64,000 nucleotides of DNA from positions 57,660,001 through 57,724,000 of the forward strand of contig NC_083287.1 in assembly GCF_963506605.1 (NCBI RefSeq), in the 5' to 3' direction. The translations under genes were made by a program, and so were the position numbers. The notes below the pieces were generated by a model. It was not told the origin of the DNA, did not search any database, and saw only the letters and a list, made by a program, of their open reading frames with translations. Shown in pieces: positions 4,581 through 34,315 of this stretch. Source of the DNA: Zootoca vivipara (lineage: Eukaryota). Numbering within the stretch: the stretch's first letter is position 1; each line of letters starts with the position of its first letter.

Positions 4581-6023
4581 CTGCAACCAAAGAAAGCCGA
4601 GCTCAATGTGGGAAATAACTCCTTGCCAAACTAGAACGAGAGGAGTTCCCCAGTGGAGAATCGCCTTCCATGGGAGCGTGACAAGGGCAATCAAGGGTCT
4701 GGAGGAACGGTGGAGGAACTTGGGGATGTTTAAATGATGCATTCAAATGAGAAGAAAGGAGGTCCCCACTAAACATCAGGAAGAACTTTCTGACAGTAAG
4801 AGCTGTTCAACAGTGGGACGGTCTAGGTGGAGACTCCTTCCTTGGAGGGAGCCATTGCTTCGAGTCCTACCCTCCAGAGCAGAGGAAATAAGTTTGCTTC
4901 ATCTTCCACATGACAGCCCTTGAGCTATGGCTCTCATATCTCCTCTCAGCCTCCTCTTTTCCAGGCTAAACATACCCAGATCCTTCAACTGTTCCTCATA
5001 AGGCATGGTTTGCCTTGACCGTGAACAATAAATAAAACATCAAAGAATACACAACCAGACTGAACAGTTTTCACATCGAAAAGGGACCAACAAAATTACA
5101 GTAATATTGATAACAGCAACAGCTTCAGTGCCCCGACAAAAAACCCCTAAGCAATAACACAGCCAATGAGTCTGTGTTTTATAGCTGCAGCCCAGGTCCC
5201 ACCCTCCCAGGCCAGGTGGGAAGAGGCCTGCCGAGGGGGGGCAAGCTTGTTTTCTGCTGCTCCAGAAGGGAGGACCTAAACCGATGGATTCAATGACAAG
5301 AAAGGAGATTCTGACTCAACAACAGGGAGAACTCTCTCACGGCAAGAGCTGTTGGACAGCAGAATGGACCTCCTTCAGAAGGTGGTGGACTTGCCTTCCT
5401 TGGAGTCTTCTAAGCAGAGGTCAGACGGCCGTCTGCCAGGACTTCTTCAGCTGTGATTCCTGCCTTGCAGCGGGTTGCGCCAAATGACCCGCGGACGTCC
5501 CTTCCTGCTCTCCGGTTCTAGAATCCTGTGATTCTAGAGTGATCAGTAGAACTCTGATAATCTAGGAAGCAGGGATCCAATCCCAGACTTGCAGAAGGAG
5601 AAGCAGAGTCTTGGGACCCCCTTAAGTTGAATGCACATCCTGCAACCTTTCTCCGAGGAAACCAGGGACACCCTCCAAAATTCTCTGATGAAAATAGGGG
5701 CATCCTATTCTATACCTTCCAACATATCTTCGATGAAAATAGGGATGTCCTAAGGAAAAGCAGGACATTCCGGGACTCAGAAACTGGGACAGCTTCTGTA
5801 AATCAGACTGTCGCTGGAAAACAAGGACACTTGGAGGGTCTGCTAACATCCCCAGCTTATCCAGCAAATTGGGAAGTTCATTCCCTGTCACTATTTCACA
5901 CAGCGGGCAAGTTTTATTGGGCATAGGTGGGTGGCAGTCTGTGGTGCTTTGTTATATGGGGTGACGATCCTCTGCCTCCCCCTCCGGCCCCATGCACGCT
6001 CCCCCCTCCCATGTCCCGCTCAC

Positions 6024-6188
6024 CGTCTCCGTGACGTGGGTCACGGCTTGCTCCTTGAACGTCGCCTGCACGAGGTCCCTGCTGTGGAAGAAATCTAGCA
6101 CCAGCTCCAGAGCCCTTTGCTGGAGGGGCGACCGGTTGGCATCCGCCAGGACCAGGAGGCCCAAGCACAGCACTAGAAGCCCCTTCAT
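6024..6188 (-). CDS. RARRES2: Chemerin first coding exon, signal peptide MKGLLVLCLGLLVLADA + NRSPLQQRALELVLDFFHSRDLVQATFKEQAVTHVTET
   Basis: ATG at 6188, hydrophobic signal peptide, ACG|gtgagc donor. Resembles human QRRGLQVALEEFHKHPPVQWAFQE. Confidence 0.93.
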
Positions 6189-7584
6189 CCCCCTTGCCCG
6201 CGTCCCCAGTGGATCTGTTGCCCACACCCTGCCCTTGAGAACTCCCCTGCCGGTCTGTTGATCTTGGTCGGTCATTAACTTGTTCCCATGAGAGCTGCCC
6301 CAGACGCAGGCCCCCTCGCCTGCCCTCTGCCCTCTCCTGTGGCTGTTTGTTGGCTGATGCCCGGGAGATGAAAGGGAGGGGTGGGTAAAGGGCACCCATG
6401 CAGGGAAACAACAGGAGGAGGGGTCCCTTTGGCCACCCCTCCCAACTGGCTGCCAAAGATGCGGGGTGTTTTTCTCAGGTCTGCTTTCCCTTTGGGGCTG
6501 GCACAAGGGATGCAGGATCTCTCCTTTATGCCAGTGGCTCCCAAAGTGGGTGGTACCTGCTGCATAAGAGCATAAGAGCCTGGTGGATCAAGAAGAATGC
6601 TTTTAGCAGGTGCCAGAAAGAGCACAGAGAATTCAGAGGAGGCGCCTACCTGGTATCAATAGGCAGGGAGTTCCCAAAGTGCGTGTCGAGTTTGTGTCTA
6701 CATGCATGCAGGCAAATTGGTCCCATGTTTTAAAGGGCTTTGTAGACTTATTGCCACACCTTGATCCTGGCCCGGTAGCAAATCAGCGACCAGTGCAGAT
6801 CTTTGATTTCAATTTTCTGTTTTACAATTTAGAATATTCATTTAAACAACCTTAAAATATCAATGACTTCCCTTCTTCTCTTTCCTTGGTTCATTTTGCA
6901 TATCATTGCTACGGCACATTTTACATAAACTAAACCATTCAGCATTCCATTATAGTATTACATCCATTAAAACTAATTTACACTGCTGAATTTATCCAGG
7001 TTGTTTCCCCTGAAACAGCTCTGATGGACAATATTGATATTAGAGATTTGGCCTTTCCCATTCCACCTGCCACTTCGTTGTCGCCCCCACTGATCCCAGT
7101 GTTTGATCTACAAAGTCCACAGCTTTCACTCCAGGAACACATAAGCAAACAGAAACGTCTGGAGCCTTGCAGTTTCCCAACATCTGCTGGGCAGCCGCCT
7201 CTTTCATGAACCTGGCATTTTGGTGGTCAAGTTGCTGGTGGCCAGTTTGGTCCCCTTCCTAGCCAGAGAAGCCAGGATGGCAGTGACAAAGCCAAAAGCA
7301 GGTTTGTTCATATTTTAAAGTGGGGAATGGCTTCAATGATTCATGCATGCTGGTATTTAGAATGCACAAGTTTTGCTGGCTATGTTCTATTAAAATGTTT
7401 GTGGAAAACATAAAAGGTTAGTACATTTTGTGCAAGAACAGCATGCAGGATCAGGCCAGTGGTCTATCCAGTCCAGTATCCTCTTCGGAACCAGAGTGGG
7501 AAACTCTAAAGCTGGTGGAATTACCCAGTGGGGTGCTATTAAGTGGGGGGAGGGAGTGGGGCTCTGGAGGTGTAAATACTGTAA

Positions 7585-10379: not shown

Positions 10380-11200
10380 CAGGCACATCCCGCAGAACTA
10401 CTTTTCCCATGGTGCCCTGCGCGGAAGATCCTCTCGCGAGAGGTAAGCCGCGAAACCCGGACGCCATCGCGAGAATCCCCTCCCACGCTTCTCGGGCAAA
10501 CGGGACGGCCCCCCATTTCCTGCCTCAGCGCCCGGCGGGAACTCGCTCTCCCATGATACCGCGCGGCGGGTTACTTTCCGCCAATCTCCTTTCAGAGTCC
10601 GGGCGGGGGTAAGAAAAAAAGGGGGGGGAAAGGTCCGTGAGGAGAAGCAGGGAAGCGGAAGTGCGTGCATTGTGGAGGGCGAAAAGGGGCGGGGCTTGGG
10701 GGGAAGAGAGCGAGCGGGCCTTTCCGGTTCCTTCATCCGGGTCCTTTTTGCTCTATTAAAATAAAAAAATTATCTATACATATATATGTATATATAACAG
10801 CGCGTGAGGAGACGGCAAGAAGGAGGGGGCAAAAGGAAAAGAAAAGACGAGGCCTCGCCCCTCCGCCGCTTGACGTCATCGCGTGAGGTCACCGGGCCCG
10901 ACGATGATGCGTCGGTGACGCGGGCCTCGCGTCCGCCACGGCCGGGGACCGTCACGGTGTTGCTATGGCAACACCGCCTGCTGGGTCAGGGGGTCACCGC
11001 GCGGCCTGGTGAGCGGGGCGGGGGGGAGGGAGAAGAGGGTCGGGGGGCCGCCCTGGCGGTGGGGTGGGGGGCGAGGGAAGGGCGGGTCGGGGGGCCCCGT
11101 GGGTGAGGGGAAGGAGCAGCTCCCGAAACAGGGAGAGGCCTCGCGGATGGGGGGGGGCGCCTGAGGTGTGTGTGTGTGTGCAGGGGAAGCTCCTCCGCGG
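10380..11200 (+). promoter_or_regulatory. CpG-island promoter and first exon of zinc-finger gene 1
   Basis: ZNF143/THAP11 motif 10397-10421, TCTCGCGAGA 10432-10441, ETS GCGGAAGTG 10655-10663, GC box ~10686, CRE TGACGTCA 10871-10878, RFX X-box GTTGCTATGGCAAC 10959-10972, candidate donor ctg|gtgagc at ~11008. Confidence 0.85.
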
Positions 11201-15365: not shown

Positions 15366-15505
15366 GGCCTTTCAGAAGGAGCAGCAAAAATAAACCGCCA
15401 GAAGGATGGTCAGACTCGCAGGACGAATCCTGTTGCCGAGGAGAAACATGGTCTCCCCTCCCTGGATAACTGTCCTAGGAAATGCCTGCAAGGGGGGCTG
15501 CCCAG
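15366..15505 (+). other. Upstream exon of ZNF gene 1 carrying the ancestral start MPARGAAQ (15482-15505) and a second ATG at 15406
   Basis: Pyrimidine-rich tract ...tgcag| acceptor and CAG|gtaggg donor. The 24-nt ATG..CAG phase-0 segment has the same layout as REPIN1 MAGGSLAQ. Confidence 0.65.
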
Positions 15506-16640
15506 GTAGGGTGAGGGCAGGGGAAGTCTGAGCCGTGGGTTGGAGCTCTCTGGGGCAGCTGCCTTGCTTGGGGAAGGCTCCTCAGCCCTGAACACTGACC
15601 ATTCTGCCTGGGGCTGATGGGATGCCATCATCTTCTGGAGGCCACCATGTTGACCATCTCCACCCTGTGCACTTTGATGGGCATGGCTTGGCTCCAGCGG
15701 ATGCCACCATTTGATGATGGTGACTAGCGCTAGGCGTGTAGGGCTTCCTCCCACAGATAGGGTGGGGGTGGGAGCCCCCCCAATGCGAAGCACACACAAC
15801 ATAGGCATAGAACCTAAGAAGTGCCTGCTGGATCAGGCCAGTGCCCCACCCAGTCCAGCTTCAGGACGGCTCCTCCTCCTATAAGCTTGAATATTTTATC
15901 TGGCAACAATAGTTTACAACAGTCTTCAAAAAACAGACGTTAAGCCAACCAGCCTGTAATTTCCAGGATCCCCCTTAGATCCCTTTACAAAAACCGTTGT
16001 CACAATGGATACTTTCCAATCCTCAGGTATGGAGGCTGATCTGAGGAACAAGTGACATATTTTTTTTGTTAGAAGATCAGCCGCTGCACATTTGAGTTCT
16101 TTGAGAACTCCGTGAGAGGTGCTGCGTCTAATCTTTCTCCCCATCATGAACTTGTAGCGTTCCCACTGGGTCCTCGGTGGCACAACACCTGCTTTGAATG
16201 CAGAAAGCCCCAGGTTCGGTCCTTGAAGGCATCTCCTGTCATTCCTGGCCGCTGGCCATAAACATCCCGTTCTCACTTTTGCCCCCTAGATGCCTCGGTG
16301 GGAAACCAGGGAGCAGAGCATGAGCACCAGAGCCCTCTCCCCCCCCCCCCGGTGGTTTCCAGCATCTGGATGCATTGTAGCCATCCTGGTGGGGCTGATG
16401 GGAGTTATAGTCCAGCCACATCTGGGGAGCACATCCCTGCTGGTCCGAGGCTGTGGCTTTGGTATAAAGGGGCTCCTGCCGCTCCCGGGTTGGGCTTCCT
16501 GGTCCTGAAGTGGCTTCCTCAGAGCAGGGCAAGCGCTGACCGGTCCATCTTGTCGCAGCAGGTGACGTCTGAGCCTCCCCTGGTCTGCGTCTCCCCGGAG
16601 GAGGTCCCGGAGAATCCGCAAGGAGTCGCTGGGTGTGGTG

Positions 16641-16671
16641 ATGGAGAACTACGAGCTGGTCACTTCCCTGG
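16641..16671 (+). CDS. ZNF gene 1 probable start (MENYELVTSL-G) within a frameshifted KRAB-A relic exon (16559/16562-16671)
   Basis: ENYELVTSLG is the KRAB-A C-terminus. Strong Kozak gtgATGG, in-frame TGA upstream at 16563-16565, donor G|gtaaga phase 1. Confidence 0.7.
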
Positions 16672-16853
16672 GTAAGATGCCACTGGTTTTGTTTGGGGGA
16701 GGCGGTTGCTTGCCAAAAGCTTTGTTGGCTTGCCTGTTGGGAGCCTCAGAAAGGCTCGTCTCCTCATTCACGCTGGCTCTGCTCAAGAGGGGCGAGCTTC
16801 CTTCACCAGGCAATGCGGAACGAGGCAGAGAAACTACCGTACAACTGCAGATA

Positions 16854-17096
16854 CAGTGGTACCTCGGAAGTCAAACGTTCTGGAACTCCGTTTAACTTCT
16901 AAAACATTTGGAAACCATAGTGCGGCTTCTGATTGGCTGCAGGAAGCTCCTGCAGCCGATTGGAAGCTGCGTAAGCTGCATCGGACATTTGAATTCCAAA
17001 GAACGTTCGCAAACTGGAAAACTCACTTCCGGGGTTGCAGTGTTTGGGAGCCAAAACGTTTGAGTCACAAGGCATTTGGGATCCAAGGTACGACTG
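16854..17096. mobile_element. Tc1/mariner (Tigger/pogo-like) MITE
   Basis: TA|CAGTGGTACCT...AGGTACGACTG|TA terminal inverted repeats with TA TSD. Confidence 0.85.
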
Positions 17097-17739
17097 TATT
17101 GTGAGGGCCAGAGAGTCAGTCAGCCTCTTTCCTCCCAATTGTTAGGTCTCCACTCCAGGCAGCAGAGGGTCCCCAGGTGAAGAGCCAGCACAGCTTCCCC
17201 CTAGCATGTGACGCTGGAGCCCAGCTCTGAGGTTTCAACAGCATGCTTGGTGGCGGCTGGCTGAGTCTGCTTTGGTGCAGGAGTTCATTGGGGTTACTTA
17301 ACATAAGAAGAGCCTGCTGGATCCGGCCAGTGGCCCATCCAGCCCAGAATCCCGATGGCCCCACCAGATGCAAGCAGAATCCGAGCTCAACAGCAGCTCT
17401 CCCCCATCCCTTGGCTTCTGGCAACTGGGATTCCGAAGCATTGCAATCTGACTGTGGAGGCAGACTAGAGCCAATAGCCATTAACAGTCCTCTTCCTCCA
17501 TCCGTTTGCCATACATTTGCTTTCGTGTGTAGATGTGATCCTGCGGTAGATATGTTTACTGGAAAGAAGCCCTCTACCTTTAAGATCCTGCCCTGGGGTG
17601 TTGTGGGGTACAGAGGGGGCCGCCTCTCCAATGCATCTGCCTTCAAGGAGTGCTCCTTTCTCTGTGCCAGGTGTGGAAACCTGAGTCAGCCTTTTAAAAG
17701 CCACCGCAATGGAGCGTAATGGTGTTCCTCCTTCTCCAG

Positions 17740-17850
17740 GCTACCCGGTTCTCAAACCTGATCTCCTGTCTCGGATCGAGCGTGCTGGAGAGCAGTGTGT
17801 TGGTGATCAGCTGGACTCTAGCAGAGGGATTCCAGCAGATCCCTGCCCAG
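17740..17850 (+). CDS. ZNF gene 1 KRAB-B-like exon 1: (G)YPVLKPDLLSRIERAGEQCVGDQLDSSRGIPADPCP
   Basis: cttctccag|G acceptor, CAG|gtaagc donor, 111 nt, phase 1/1. KPDLLSRIE is a KRAB-B motif. Confidence 0.85.
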
Positions 17851-18475: not shown

Positions 18476-18589
18476 GCTACCGGTTCTTCAAACCCGAGAG
18501 CTTATCCTGGATCGAACGGTGGGAAGAGCTTGGCGTCACGGATCGCCAGAAGCTGGAGGAAGGCAAGCTGTGCACAGGCTCCTGCCAAG
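18476..18589 (+). CDS. ZNF gene 1 KRAB-B-like exon 2: (G)YRFFKPESLSWIERWEELGVTDRQKLEEGKLCTGSCQ
   Basis: Branch/pyrimidine tract ...gccag|G, AAG|gtgagg donor, 114 nt, phase 1/1. KPExLSWIE is a KRAB-B motif. Confidence 0.78.
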
Positions 18590-19607: not shown

Positions 19608-20655
19608 GAGCAGCCGGCCGCGGCAAGGCCATCAAGGAGGAGGAAGGTGGCCAGAAGGGCTTTGTGGCCAGCTTAGAGCGCTACCAGCTCTTCCCCGACA
19701 GCTCCCGAGCGGGCCTTTTCCTGGCGCCCAACGCTGCCCAGCTGCGGGCACAGCAGCCTCGTGTCAAGAAGGAGGAAGCGGCCTCATGTGAGCCGGGCCT
19801 GTGTGGCCCCGGGCGCCCCTCTCAGGGCCTGGGCTCGGGCCCCTTCGCCTGCGTGGTTTGTGGGAAGTGCTTCCGCCAGAAGCAGGGTCTCATCACGCAT
19901 GGGCGCATCCACACGGGCGAGAAGCCCTACCCCTGCCTAGAGTGCGGCAAGCGCTTCCGCCAGCGCCCCAACCTGCTGACGCACCAGCGGGTGCACACAG
20001 GCGAGCGGCCCTTCCCCTGCCTGCGCTGTGGCAAGCGCTTCAGCCAGAAGGCCAACCTGGCGGCTCACCAGCGCACCCACGCCGTCCAGGAGGGGCTGAT
20101 TGCCCCAGAGCCCAAGACGCCCGTGCCGCGGGGCAGCCGCCAGACGGAGAAGCCCTTCCCCTGCAACGTCTGCGGGAAGAGCTTCAGCCAGCGGCCCAAC
20201 CTCATCACCCACCAGCGGATCCACACGGGCGAGAAGCCTTTCGCCTGCACCGAGTGCGGGAAGCGCTTCAACCAGCGCGCCAACCTCATCACCCACCGCC
20301 GCATCCACTCGGGCGAGAGGCCCTTCCCCTGCGCCACCTGCGGCCGCCGCTTCAGCCAGAAGGGCAACCTTGCTGCCCACCAGCGCACCCACTCCCAGCA
20401 GAGGCCCCACGCCTGCTCCTGCTGCCCCAAGCGCTTCAAGGGAGAGTCGGCCCTCCGAGCGCACCAGAGGACCCACCGGCAGGTCCTGGGCGCTGACCCG
20501 CTGGCCGGAGCCCTCTTGGCGGTGGCTCCTGGCCTCCAGCAGCAGGCCCCCCTCCCCGGGGACCCCACCTCGGCCGCGCAGAGGGCCACGCCGGCCCCCC
20601 GCCAGGATCTGCCCGGGGACCCCACTCCGGGCGTCCATCGGGCTGCCCCCTCCGG

Positions 20656-20687
<32 letters not shown>

Positions 20688-20689
20688 CA

Positions 20690-20721
<32 letters not shown>

Positions 20722-21238
20722 GCACGGAGCCCCTCATGGGCCACAGAGTCTTCCCGCGGACCCTCCACCTGGTCCCCACGCAGCAGCGGGCCCCACTGGA
20801 CACCTCCAGGGTGTGGCCCCCGGCTCGGAGCAAGGGCCGAAGCTGAGTGCCCCGCCGGCCGTGATGGACCCCCACGCCGAGATGCTCCACTGCCAGCGCC
20901 GGCTGAGCCTGCCAGCGCTGCCCACCTCCAGCGCCCATTCCGTGGTGCCCATGGGGCAACCGCAGCCCATCACCACCAAACCCAAGAGCCTGGTGGGGCC
21001 GCGGCTGGACGCCCCTGGCGAAATGCTCCACTGCCTCTGCCACGCCAGCAGGGCCTCGCTGGTCATTCCTCACCCGCCCCACCTGGGGCAGCTCCAGGCG
21101 GGGGCCAGGGATGCACCTGGCCGCGCCTGGCTGGGCATCCCGTGCCCGGCCCGCACCCTGCAGCTCCAGCAGGGGGCCCAGGGCCACCCCGCCGCCCCCA
21201 ACCCCAGACTCTGCTCCATCCCGGATTCCCTGCGATAG
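19608..21238 (+). CDS. ZNF gene 1 terminal exon: 7 C2H2 fingers (3+4) followed by a Pro/Gln-rich tail with Q10-P-Q11
   Basis: Long pyrimidine tract ...ccttcag|GA, phase 1, in frame with ORF 19457..21238. TGEKP/TGERP linkers; stop TAG at 21236-21238. Confidence 0.93.
20657..20722 (+). repeat. Coding CAG/CAA repeat (Q10PQ11)
   Basis: Read directly from the sequence. Confidence 0.97.
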
Positions 21239-32149: not shown

Positions 32150-32660
32150 CAAGAACAGCAAAGGCTGCGAGATTTCTCTGGCTGAGCTGAGCAAGTCGAA
32201 GAAGGCGAGGCGCAGGAGGTTTTCCCTGCGCACCAGGCGCGCAGGCGGGCCTCTGGGGAGACAGCTGAGCCACGCTCACCAACCATCCCTGGGATTTCGC
32301 AGCAGCAGCAGCAGAGTCTGCCCTCTCCTGCTTGCGGAGGAACTACACTTCCCAGGGTGCAGCGCCGGAGCGTAAATCTTCAAAGGCTAACAAAAGAGCA
32401 GCCGGCAAAGCTGACAGGCGGAGGGCAGAGGAGGAGGAGGAGGAGGAGGAGGAGGAAGGAGAGCGAGACCAGGGCGAGGAGAGCACAACAGCTGGCCTCT
32501 CCTGCGGCCCAGGGAGGGCGGATCGCGGCCTCTGACAGCTGGGTGGGGTGGGGGGTTTGGAGGGGGAGAAGCTGCCCCCTCTCCTGCCCCTGCCACCCCG
32601 GCTGCTTGCTGCAAAGGGAGCTCTGGAGGATGGCCGGAGGGAGCCTGGCTCAGGTAGGCC
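32150..32660 (+). promoter_or_regulatory. CpG-rich promoter/5' UTR of REPIN1
   Basis: CpG cluster, ZNF143/THAP11 motif ACTACACTTCCCAGGGTGC at 32342-32360, (GGA)n leader ending in the ATG exon. Confidence 0.75.
32630..32653 (+). CDS. REPIN1: REPIN1 first coding exon MAGGSLAQ
   Basis: Kozak aggATGG and CAG|gtaggc phase-0 donor, compatible with the KRAB-A exon. Confidence 0.75.
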
Positions 32661-34188
32661 CTGCAGAGAGAGAGAGAGAGAGACCTCCAGCATCCTGTTT
32701 TCTTCCGACTGGCAGCCTGATCTCTCTCTCCCACCCACCCCCCCTCCTGCAAAAAGGGGCTCAGGGGTTGGGGTTGGGGTGCAGAATCCGGATCCGTCTC
32801 CTCCTGCGGGGAGAAGATCAAATTACAGCCTCTTGAGCCGCTGCCAGCCCCCCACCCCCACCCCACCCGCAGCTATTCAATGCTGCTTTGGGGTTTCTTA
32901 AAAGGCACGCAAGGGGGGGAACCCCCCACCTTACCCCCACCCCAGACTTCCTGCTTTTCATACGGAGGAAACCGCCCCCCCGGGCAGTGCCCGTCTCAAT
33001 GCGTTTTGGCAGCAACAGCAGCAGCAGAGCTTAAAATGACCCCCACCCCACCCCACCTGCGCGGCTCTGCCCCAGATTTAAGGGGCTCCGCAGAGGGGTG
33101 CAAAGGCAGCCCCTATGGGACCCCGATCTCCCCGTCAAACTCAAGGGGTGATGGATGGATCTGCGTTAGAAGCAGCAGCAGCAGCGAGGGGCGTTGGGAT
33201 GAAATGAGACCCCAGGGGGCCCTTCAGAAGGGGAGACCCCCCCCCTTAATTTCTTACTCCCATCCAAACCACGGGTTTCATTTCTGGGTAAAGGCAACCC
33301 ACCCAGCCATGCCACCATCTTCAAAGGAATCGGGTGCTTGACGGTGCCCTAACCTGCAGGCAGGCCAGGGCAGCTGGAAAAAAAGAGGTGGAGGGGTCCC
33401 CCTGGCATATTTTTCCCCCACCCCCCAAATATCAGAAACTAGCCCCCTCTCCCTCCCCCCAAAAAGGTCAGAGTTAATTCCCCAAAGCCCAGTGCCGGTT
33501 CGGCTTGAATATTATTGTTGATCGTCTGAGAAAGGGCTCCCACGGGGGCGGATCAGCTGGGAAAAAAGCAGAGAAATATTGGGAAAGGCTTCTGAAGCCC
33601 CCCCCCCCCCGTCTCCTCGCCATGGCCCTGTGAGTGACAGGTGTCCCCCCTCCCTGCAACGACCACAGAACCTTTTGTTTGTTCACAAGGTCGAGGCGGT
33701 CCCGGCGGGCCACTTGAGTGCCACACACCTGTCGCGGTGACGGGGACCGGGCTCTGTGGCAGAGCTGCGCTTTCTATGCAGAAGGCTCACTCCCCGATGG
33801 CATCGCCAGGTAGGACTGGAAATGCCCACCCCCTTGCCCAAAACCCCAGGAATAAAAGAGAGGGGGACAGAGAGAGAGCCCCGAGGCAGCGCCAAGCTTA
33901 GATGATGCCCCAAGGGCCTGTCTCCGTGCTCTGTGGCAGGACAGTTGCCCTGCATGCAGAACATCCCAGACTCCGTCCCCAGGCAGGGCTAGGAAACCCG
34001 GTTCACGGGCAGGCTGTCCTTGGGCGAGAAGGGGCCACAATCGGTGGCCTCTGCGGCCCCCGGAATGCGTGGTCCTTCCTCCAGGATGGGATTCGGCTGG
34101 CCAGGGTTGGTGGCAGCCCCTCCGGCGGTCTTCCCGAAACAGGGACGGATCCTGCGGTGCTGAGAGAGGGGGCTTCTCCTCGTTGCAG

Positions 34189-34315
34189 GTGCCCGTGGCC
34201 TTTGAGGACGTGGCGGTCTATTTCTCGCGCGAGGAGTGGGCACAGCTGGCAGAATGGCAGAAGGAGCTATACCAAGACGTAATGGCAGAGAATTACGAGC
34301 TGGTCTCCTCGCTGG
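34189..34315 (+). CDS. REPIN1: REPIN1 KRAB-A exon [42 protein letters not shown]
   Basis: Canonical 127-nt KRAB-A exon, ttgcag|GTG acceptor, G|gtaaag donor. Confidence 0.9.

What the first reader, a model, noticed from the sequence alone, without database searches (positions are those of the whole stretch)
15482..17760. Frameshifted KRAB-A turns the ancestral start of ZNF gene 1 into an overlapping uORF
Seen: the KRAB-A relic exon is 110/113 nt instead of the 127 nt in neighbouring REPIN1. Its 5' half reads VTSEPPLVCVSPEEV (cf. [15 protein letters not shown]) in one frame and its 3' half RKESLGVVMENYELVTSLG in another. The upstream exon ends in ATG..CAG (MPARGAAQ), the same layout as REPIN1 MAGGSLAQ. 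That start now gives a ~52-aa peptide (MPARGAAQ-VTSEPP...GHFPG-LPGSQT*) overlapping the strong-Kozak internal ATG 16641 that opens the finger ORF. Known: KRAB-A recruits TRIM28/KAP1; human ZNF467 at 7q36 starts similarly (MRETLEALSSLG). Inference: a repressor converted to a KRAB-less factor under translational control by its own fossil ORF.
Basis: partly seen in the sequence, partly recalled or inferred. Interest (0 to 1): 0.75.

Follow-up and report, generated by a model that had tools for sequence, protein, structure and literature searches.

The report
Decayed KRAB exon leaves upstream ORF
In this lizard zinc-finger gene the repressor (KRAB-A) exon is broken but still spliced, so the old start codon opens a short overlapping frame and the protein likely starts at a later ATG, as predicted in other lizards and snakes too; the overlapping frame is likely a leftover that dampens translation, not a conserved switch.

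Summary
The sequence observation holds. The KRAB-A relic exon (16559/16562-16671, 113/110 nt against 127 in REPIN1) is spliced to the upstream exon and to KRAB-B in own-species RNA reads (1-2 reads per junction) and in contigs of two other species, with no gap, so it is no assembly error. ATG 15482 gives a 51/52-aa frame that overlaps the 628-aa main ORF by 53 nt. It is very likely the ancestral start: two neighbouring paralogues have the same layout and bird orthologue models use it. The regulatory reading is unshown. Of 46 squamate orthologue records, 39 start at the internal Met, but gecko and viper models imply other relic lengths, hence other frames. The frameshift therefore looks like lineage drift in a leader after the start had moved. 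Gene 1 is not ZNF467, which lies about 30 kb upstream and carries its own in-frame KRAB-A relic. Bird models lack KRAB-A altogether. Verdict: real, a new member of a known kind (KRAB loss plus overlapping uORF), modest interest.

The parts
10870..11009 (+). Candidate promoter and first exon of gene 1 (GC-rich; exact start and donor not shown)
   Evidence: Matches the gecko model P0165 at 81% over 26 and 59% over 32 translated positions; no junction to 15366 among the joints shown
15366..15505 (+). Leader exon with three ATGs (15406, 15448, 15482)
   Evidence: AG/GT ends; covered end to end by contigs of X18 and X20 and spliced to the relic exon
15482..17761 (+). Overlapping uORF of 51/52 aa from the likely ancestral start; overlaps the main ORF by 53 nt in the mRNA
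   Evidence: junctions; ancestral identity
16559..16671 (+). KRAB-A relic exon, 113 nt (110 nt from 16562); first 79-82 nt are leader, last 31 nt code for the first 10 residues of the main protein and one base of the next codon
16641..21238 (+). Main ORF, 628 aa: KRAB-A tail, two KRAB-B-like exons, seven C2H2 fingers, Gln/Pro-rich tail
   Evidence: Identical to P0004, named zinc finger protein 250 [Zootoca vivipara] by its source; seven fingers
17709..17739 (+). Alternative in-frame start at the end of the intron; would bypass all leader uORFs
   Evidence: Three Podarcis isoform-X2 records start here; the window keeps the ATG with G at -3 and +4; one X20 contig covers 17670-17768
17740..17850 (+). 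First KRAB-B-like exon; holds the stop of the overlapping uORF
   Evidence: Similar to the segment after KRAB-A in turtle KRAB proteins; no Pfam hit; spliced
18476..18589 (+). Second KRAB-B-like exon, shared with bird orthologue models
   Evidence: the KRAB-B label rests on resemblance to the first such exon
19608..21238 (+). Finger exon
   Evidence: junction 18589>19608 in X18 and X20
32630..34315 (+). Comparator: REPIN1-like gene, 8-codon first coding segment (32630-32653) and intact 127-nt KRAB-A exon (34189-34315)

Best explanation
Gene 1 is a seven-finger zinc-finger gene whose KRAB-A exon is still spliced but out of frame and degenerate, and whose protein likely starts at the internal ATG 16641, as predicted across squamates; the old start at 15482 is likely a leftover that now opens an overlapping frame and would only dampen output. 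Shown: exon sizes, junctions, the three leader ATGs and their frames. Inferred: a KRAB-A lesion and move of the start in early squamates, later lineage-specific indels in the freed part of the exon (frame differs in gecko, lacertid and viper models), and access to the main ATG by leaky scanning or by reinitiation after the 22/36-aa uORF. Ribosomes that start at 15406 or 15448 would run through ATG 15482 out of frame, which would lessen its use. The protein is predicted not to recruit TRIM28.
For: Junctions and ungapped relic exon in three species. 39 of 46 squamate records start at the internal Met; the first 11 residues are identical in 41 of the 42 records that contain them. Exon start to internal ATG: 79 nt in the window, 77 implied by gecko P0165 (9 of 16 identities in a third frame, next best offset 5), 81 implied by viper P0149, which is open and in frame. 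Other viper isoform records of the same gene start at the internal Met, so an in-frame ancestral ATG is apparently not used there. KRAB-A alone contacts KAP1 and is necessary for repression (PMC9753469 passages). About half of animal mRNAs carry uORFs and overlapping ones repress by Kozak strength (PMC10123092 passages).
Against: Gecko and viper lengths come from predicted proteins, not DNA; the viper register is positional from the acceptor and was not recovered by the ungapped scan (best 4 of 16). Orthologue records are mostly automatic annotations and not independent. ATG 15482 has survived in this lineage, and the gecko and window relics share an 8-residue run in an off frame, which could mean constraint on the leader. 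No orthologue with an intact KRAB-A was found, so the ancestral state and the order of events are inferred from paralogues. Whether ATG 15482 is kept in organisms B and C is not shown: 4 of 6 and 4 of 8 differences in that exon were listed and 76 rows were hidden.
Confidence: 0.7

Rival explanations
1. The leader is a selected translational switch: the fossil overlapping ORF represses the finger ORF and the two stronger upstream ATGs shield it and allow reinitiation, so output changes with initiation stringency or stress.
For: The layout exists in the spliced mRNA; the 12-nt insertion seen in two other species keeps the uORF frame (one chance in three); overlapping uORFs repress in reporters (PMC10123092 passages).
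Against: Frame not kept in gecko and viper models; the two listed substitutions in the relic in other species both change the uORF peptide (16596, 16629; one search read); an alternative start at 17709 would bypass the leader; no translation data.
Confidence: 0.15
2. The frameshift itself knocked out KRAB-A in the squamate ancestor, the internal ATG rescued the gene, and later indels (viper) restored frame by chance.
For: Two of three lineages with information are out of frame; all three are 9-13 nt shorter than the intact exon less its first two codons.
Against: Viper is in frame; the neighbouring ZNF467-like relic decayed by an in-frame 15-nt loss, so frameshift is not needed; bird models lack the exon, so function may have gone earlier.
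Confidence: 0.3
3. The short exon is an assembly or individual error and the real exon is an intact 127 nt.
For: Own-species depth over the exon is only 1-5 reads and no DNA run was laid.
Against: Contigs from two other species span the site with 0 gaps and 1 and 3 substitutions; no squamate orthologue record carries an N-terminal Pfam KRAB among the 10 cluster representatives or the 5 scanned.
Confidence: 0.01

Closest known systems
[quoted passage not shown]
   Same: Same cluster; in this genome the ZNF467-like gene has the same 8-codon first coding exon and a shortened KRAB-A relic, and a gecko model starts it at the KRAB-A-tail Met.
   Different: Separate gene with 12 different fingers about 30 kb upstream; its relic is 112 nt and in frame, so it makes no overlapping uORF.
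Canonical KRAB zinc-finger proteins (PF01352 + C2H2), e.g. the lizard REPIN1-like neighbour
   Same: Exon layout: short ATG exon, KRAB-A exon, KRAB-B exon, finger exon.
   Different: KRAB-A is cut to 11 residues in the protein, the KRAB-B-like exon is doubled, Pfam KRAB is not detected.
Bird orthologue group (named LOC728743 homolog, ZNF585A-like and others by sources)
   Same: 18 of 21 helix positions in the first three fingers against at most 9 of 21 in 108 other hits; N-terminal alignment score 160 against 34 +/- 6 for shuffles; same 8-residue first segment.
   Different: Bird models keep the ancestral Met in frame and join it to the KRAB-B-derived exon with no KRAB-A (14 of 21 records directly, 3 with an unrelated insert, 4 partial or different); 16 fingers in the four bird records fingerprinted, against 7.
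Overlapping uORFs (ATF4 type)
   Same: Out-of-frame upstream ATG with a stop past the main ATG; extra uORFs in the leader.
   Different: In ATF4 (recalled; passages) the permissive uORF lies upstream and the layout is regulated and conserved; here the permissive uORF runs past the overlapping ORF's ATG, and neither regulation nor conservation is shown.

Membership tests
Canonical TRIM28-recruiting KRAB-ZFP | In-frame KRAB-A box of 40-50 aa | tested here: not met
   No Pfam KRAB in either relic frame or in P0004; 11 residues remain
Canonical TRIM28-recruiting KRAB-ZFP | Asp-Val pair at the start of KRAB-A | tested here: not met
   Pro-Pro at these positions by alignment to REPIN1, and outside the main ORF; role from PMC9753469 passages
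Canonical TRIM28-recruiting KRAB-ZFP | KRAB-B box and tandem C2H2 fingers | tested here: met
   Similarity to the post-KRAB-A segment of turtle KRAB proteins; seven fingers
Canonical TRIM28-recruiting KRAB-ZFP | TRIM28 binding and repression | not testable with these tools
   No binding test was run
Regulatory overlapping uORF | Upstream ATG on the spliced mRNA, out of frame, stop downstream of the main ATG | tested here: met
Regulatory overlapping uORF | Translated, and represses or gates the main ORF | not testable with these tools
   Needs Ribo-seq or reporters
Regulatory overlapping uORF | ATG and overlap conserved across species | tested here: inconclusive
   Frame differs in gecko and viper protein models; ATG itself not seen outside this genome (rows hidden)
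ZNF467 orthologue | ZNF467 finger array and position | tested here: not met
   The array annotated as ZNF467 in gecko P0165 maps 14-16 kb before the window at 74% identity, not to gene 1

The most novel reading that the evidence does not exclude
An ancient sauropsid KRAB gene shed KRAB-A twice by different routes, exon loss in birds and start relocation in squamates. In lacertids the abandoned start became the core of a nested-uORF switch, and the retained KRAB-A tail plus doubled KRAB-B, about 90% or more identical across squamates, became a new TRIM28-independent effector module.
Probability: 0.12. Interest if true: 0.62.

Novelty: new member of a known kind. Interest (0 to 1): 0.32.

Why it matters
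It is a clean fossil record of how a KRAB repressor gene becomes a ZNF-only gene: three paralogues in one cluster show an intact, an in-frame-decayed and a frameshifted KRAB-A behind the same start exon, and bird models show exon loss. It suggests that ZNF467, described as ZNF-only, descends from a KRAB gene. It also shows one way uORFs arise, from an abandoned start codon. If the leader proved to be a regulated switch it would be a direct case of dead coding sequence reused for translational control; nothing here shows that.

Tried and rejected
No orthologue from turtle, crocodilian or tuatara was found: 29 hits; the turtle hits are ZNF282/777-type paralogues; 22 hits, all bird-named but one unnamed record; top 150 swamped by many-finger proteins; 0 of 146 new ones had the gene 1 fingerprint; best score 0.82, lead only. 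These searches have length and word limits, so absence is not shown. (bird protein against the own genome at E 1e-45) was empty and uninformative. One search listed no holder on record as RNA; this is no evidence either way. The first read lay returned nothing, so the finger exon and 3' end have no read support, and no DNA run was laid. The count of ATG-N18-CAG|GT(A/G) sites (3 on + in 174 kb) is not above chance (1.3 expected, 2 on the minus strand, 0-3 for other spacers); only their placement, 3 of 3 within 2.4 kb upstream of a KRAB-A or relic exon, carries weight. Pseudonaja P0169 could not be registered on the 5' half of the relic and is not used for frame counting. Look-ups of earlier findings were empty. 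PMC4818764 is not held. No complex or structure prediction was run.

Full report
What is there. The window holds three plus-strand C2H2 genes. The first has exons 15366-15505, 16559/16562-16671, 17740-17850, 18476-18589 and 19608-21238. Its ORF from ATG 16641 is 628 aa and identical to P0004, which its source names zinc finger protein 250 of Zootoca vivipara. The relic exon and the linker-plus-finger region each have one full-length match in the own genome.

Check of the observation. The relic exon is 110 or 113 nt; the KRAB-A exon of the neighbouring REPIN1-like gene is 127 nt and scores Pfam KRAB at E 2.7e-22, while both relic frames score nothing. The two exons are homologous at DNA level (nhmmer E 2.5e-4 and 2e-3 in 174 kb), with an 11-nt internal gap and a later acceptor. 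From ATG 15482 the spliced message gives 51 or 52 aa ending at 17759-17761, 53 nt past the main ATG.

Splicing and the artefact question. About 6 in 100 of two own-species RNA runs were read. They gave 15505>16562 (one read each in X21 and X22), 15505>16559 (two reads, one start, X22), 16671>17740 (two reads, X22) and 17850>18476 (one read, X22). Contigs of two other species (X18 organism C, X20 organism B; RNA is the tool's guess, but the contigs are spliced) carry these junctions and 18589>19608. They span the deleted site with 0 gaps and 1 and 3 substitutions. Support per junction is thin, but an assembly indel is excluded by the other species. No DNA run was laid.

Is 15482 the ancestral start? 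Very likely. The pattern ATG-N18-CAG|GT(A/G) occurs three times on the plus strand of 174 kb. That count is near chance (1.3 expected), but all three sites lie within 2.4 kb upstream of a KRAB-A or relic exon: ZNF467-like, gene 1 and REPIN1-like. Bird proteins that are likely orthologues (18 of 21 helix positions against at most 9 of 21 in 108 other hits; N-terminal score 160 against 34 +/- 6) carry a matching 8-residue segment. Of 21 bird records printed, 9 begin at it, 14 join it directly to a KRAB-B-derived segment, 3 have an unrelated insert and 4 are partial or different. None of the 22 records lists Pfam KRAB.

How old is the internal start? Of 46 squamate records (10 cluster representatives and 36 further members; geckos, skinks, a cordylid, lacertids, an amphisbaenian, anguimorphs, Anolis, snakes), 39 begin at the internal Met. 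Three read upstream through the relic, three Podarcis isoforms begin at the equivalent of ATG 17709, and one unnamed record begins elsewhere. The first 11 residues are identical in 41 of the 42 records that contain them, and residues 1-165 are 88-96% identical in eight of the nine other representatives; the ninth lacks one exon. These are mostly automatic annotations and not independent, but they show strong constraint from the internal ATG on.

Is the frameshift conserved? Apparently not. The gecko model P0165 matches the relic's 5' half in a third frame (9 of 16, next best offset 5), implying an exon 2 nt shorter than in the window. The viper model P0149 reads 27 open codons from an acceptor-like position into the internal Met, in frame; this register is positional, and the ungapped scan did not recover it. 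Other isoform records of that viper gene start at the internal Met. Exon start to ATG is thus 79, 77 and 81 nt in three lineages, three different frames, against 90 for the intact exon less two codons. No DNA of these species was seen. The simplest reading is an early lesion, relocation of the start, and later drift in sequence that had become leader.

The leader exon has two further ATGs, 15406 and 15448, both A at -3 and G at +4, better than 15482 (G at -3, C at +4). They share a frame, run through 15482 and stop 68 nt before the main ATG. Scanning ribosomes meet them first. ZNF467 is not this gene: the array annotated so in the gecko fusion model maps 14-16 kb before the window. That gene has its own KRAB-A relic of 112 nt, in frame with its own 8-codon start exon.

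How it most likely works. Shown: the exons, junctions and frames. Inferred: the protein starts at 16641, reached by leaky scanning or by reinitiation after the 22/36-aa uORF; ribosomes that start at 15482 overshoot the main ATG and are lost, a constant dampening; transcripts starting near 17709 would avoid the leader. The protein keeps only the KRAB-A tail, and KRAB-A is what contacts KAP1/TRIM28 (PMC9753469, passages), so it is predicted not to recruit it. PMC3971581 (passages and section 16) warns that KAP1 binding cannot be assumed even for intact lizard KRABs, so 'a repressor converted' is itself an inference. No orthologue with an intact KRAB-A was found.

Known kinds and novelty. Older KZFPs with variant, TRIM28-free KRAB domains are known (PMC10547255, passages). 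uORFs are in about half of animal mRNAs and overlapping ones repress in reporters (PMC10123092, passages); PMC3486843 treats constraint on overlapping uORFs (search listing only). Searches listed no paper on this gene or on an abandoned KRAB start acting as an overlapping uORF; the library lacks most subscription journals, I judged from titles and abstract starts, and I read no supplements (the lizard and chicken gene-model tables of PMC3971581 may list the gene). Gene names REPIN1, ZNF775 and RARRES2 and the human gene order are recalled, not from a call.

Verdict. Observation confirmed; interpretation partly supported; a new member of a known kind; interest 0.32. The boldest reading not excluded, a nested-uORF switch plus a new KRAB-B-based module, has probability about 0.12.

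Noticed in passing
G000:C12 about 57638590-57641080 (L010-L011; 21.4 to 18.9 kb before window base 1): The ZNF467-like gene has an 8-codon ATG exon and a 112-nt in-frame KRAB-A relic five codons short; a gecko model starts at the relic's Met. It suggests KRAB ancestry for a gene described as ZNF-only.
   Followed up: partly
window 16635-16643: In the ungapped alignment the start Met lies one codon after the usual KRAB-A Met, which reads GTG here; this gives the new start G at -3 and +4. The two Val codons before it are kept in the three models that read upstream.
   Followed up: no
window 17709-17739: In-frame ATG in strong context at the intron end, used by Podarcis isoform-X2 models; it would bypass the leader uORFs.
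   Followed up: partly
window 15431: Both other species carry 12 extra nt here, so the window's lineage has likely lost them; the uORF frame is kept.
   Followed up: no
window 10870-11000: GC-rich stretch conserved with a gecko, with CRE-like and X-box-like motifs (names recalled); likely the gene 1 promoter, facing away from a chemerin-like (RARRES2, recalled) exon on the minus strand near 5950-6590.
   Followed up: no
window 20658-20724: A polyglutamine run in gene 1 that is absent from the Varanus, gecko and snake orthologues shown.
   Followed up: no
window 50236-51993 and L013 (about 66.5-67.3 kb from window base 1): The ZNF775-like gene and a fourth finger gene just past the window showed no KRAB-A motif or relic in the motif and nhmmer scans. 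One pigeon model (P0079) ends in a finger like the fourth gene's, perhaps a fused model.
   Followed up: no
P0151, P0165, P0173: Annotation fusions of gene 1 with its neighbours in Candoia, Paroedura and Gekko kuhli confirm the same gene order in boas and geckos.
   Followed up: partly
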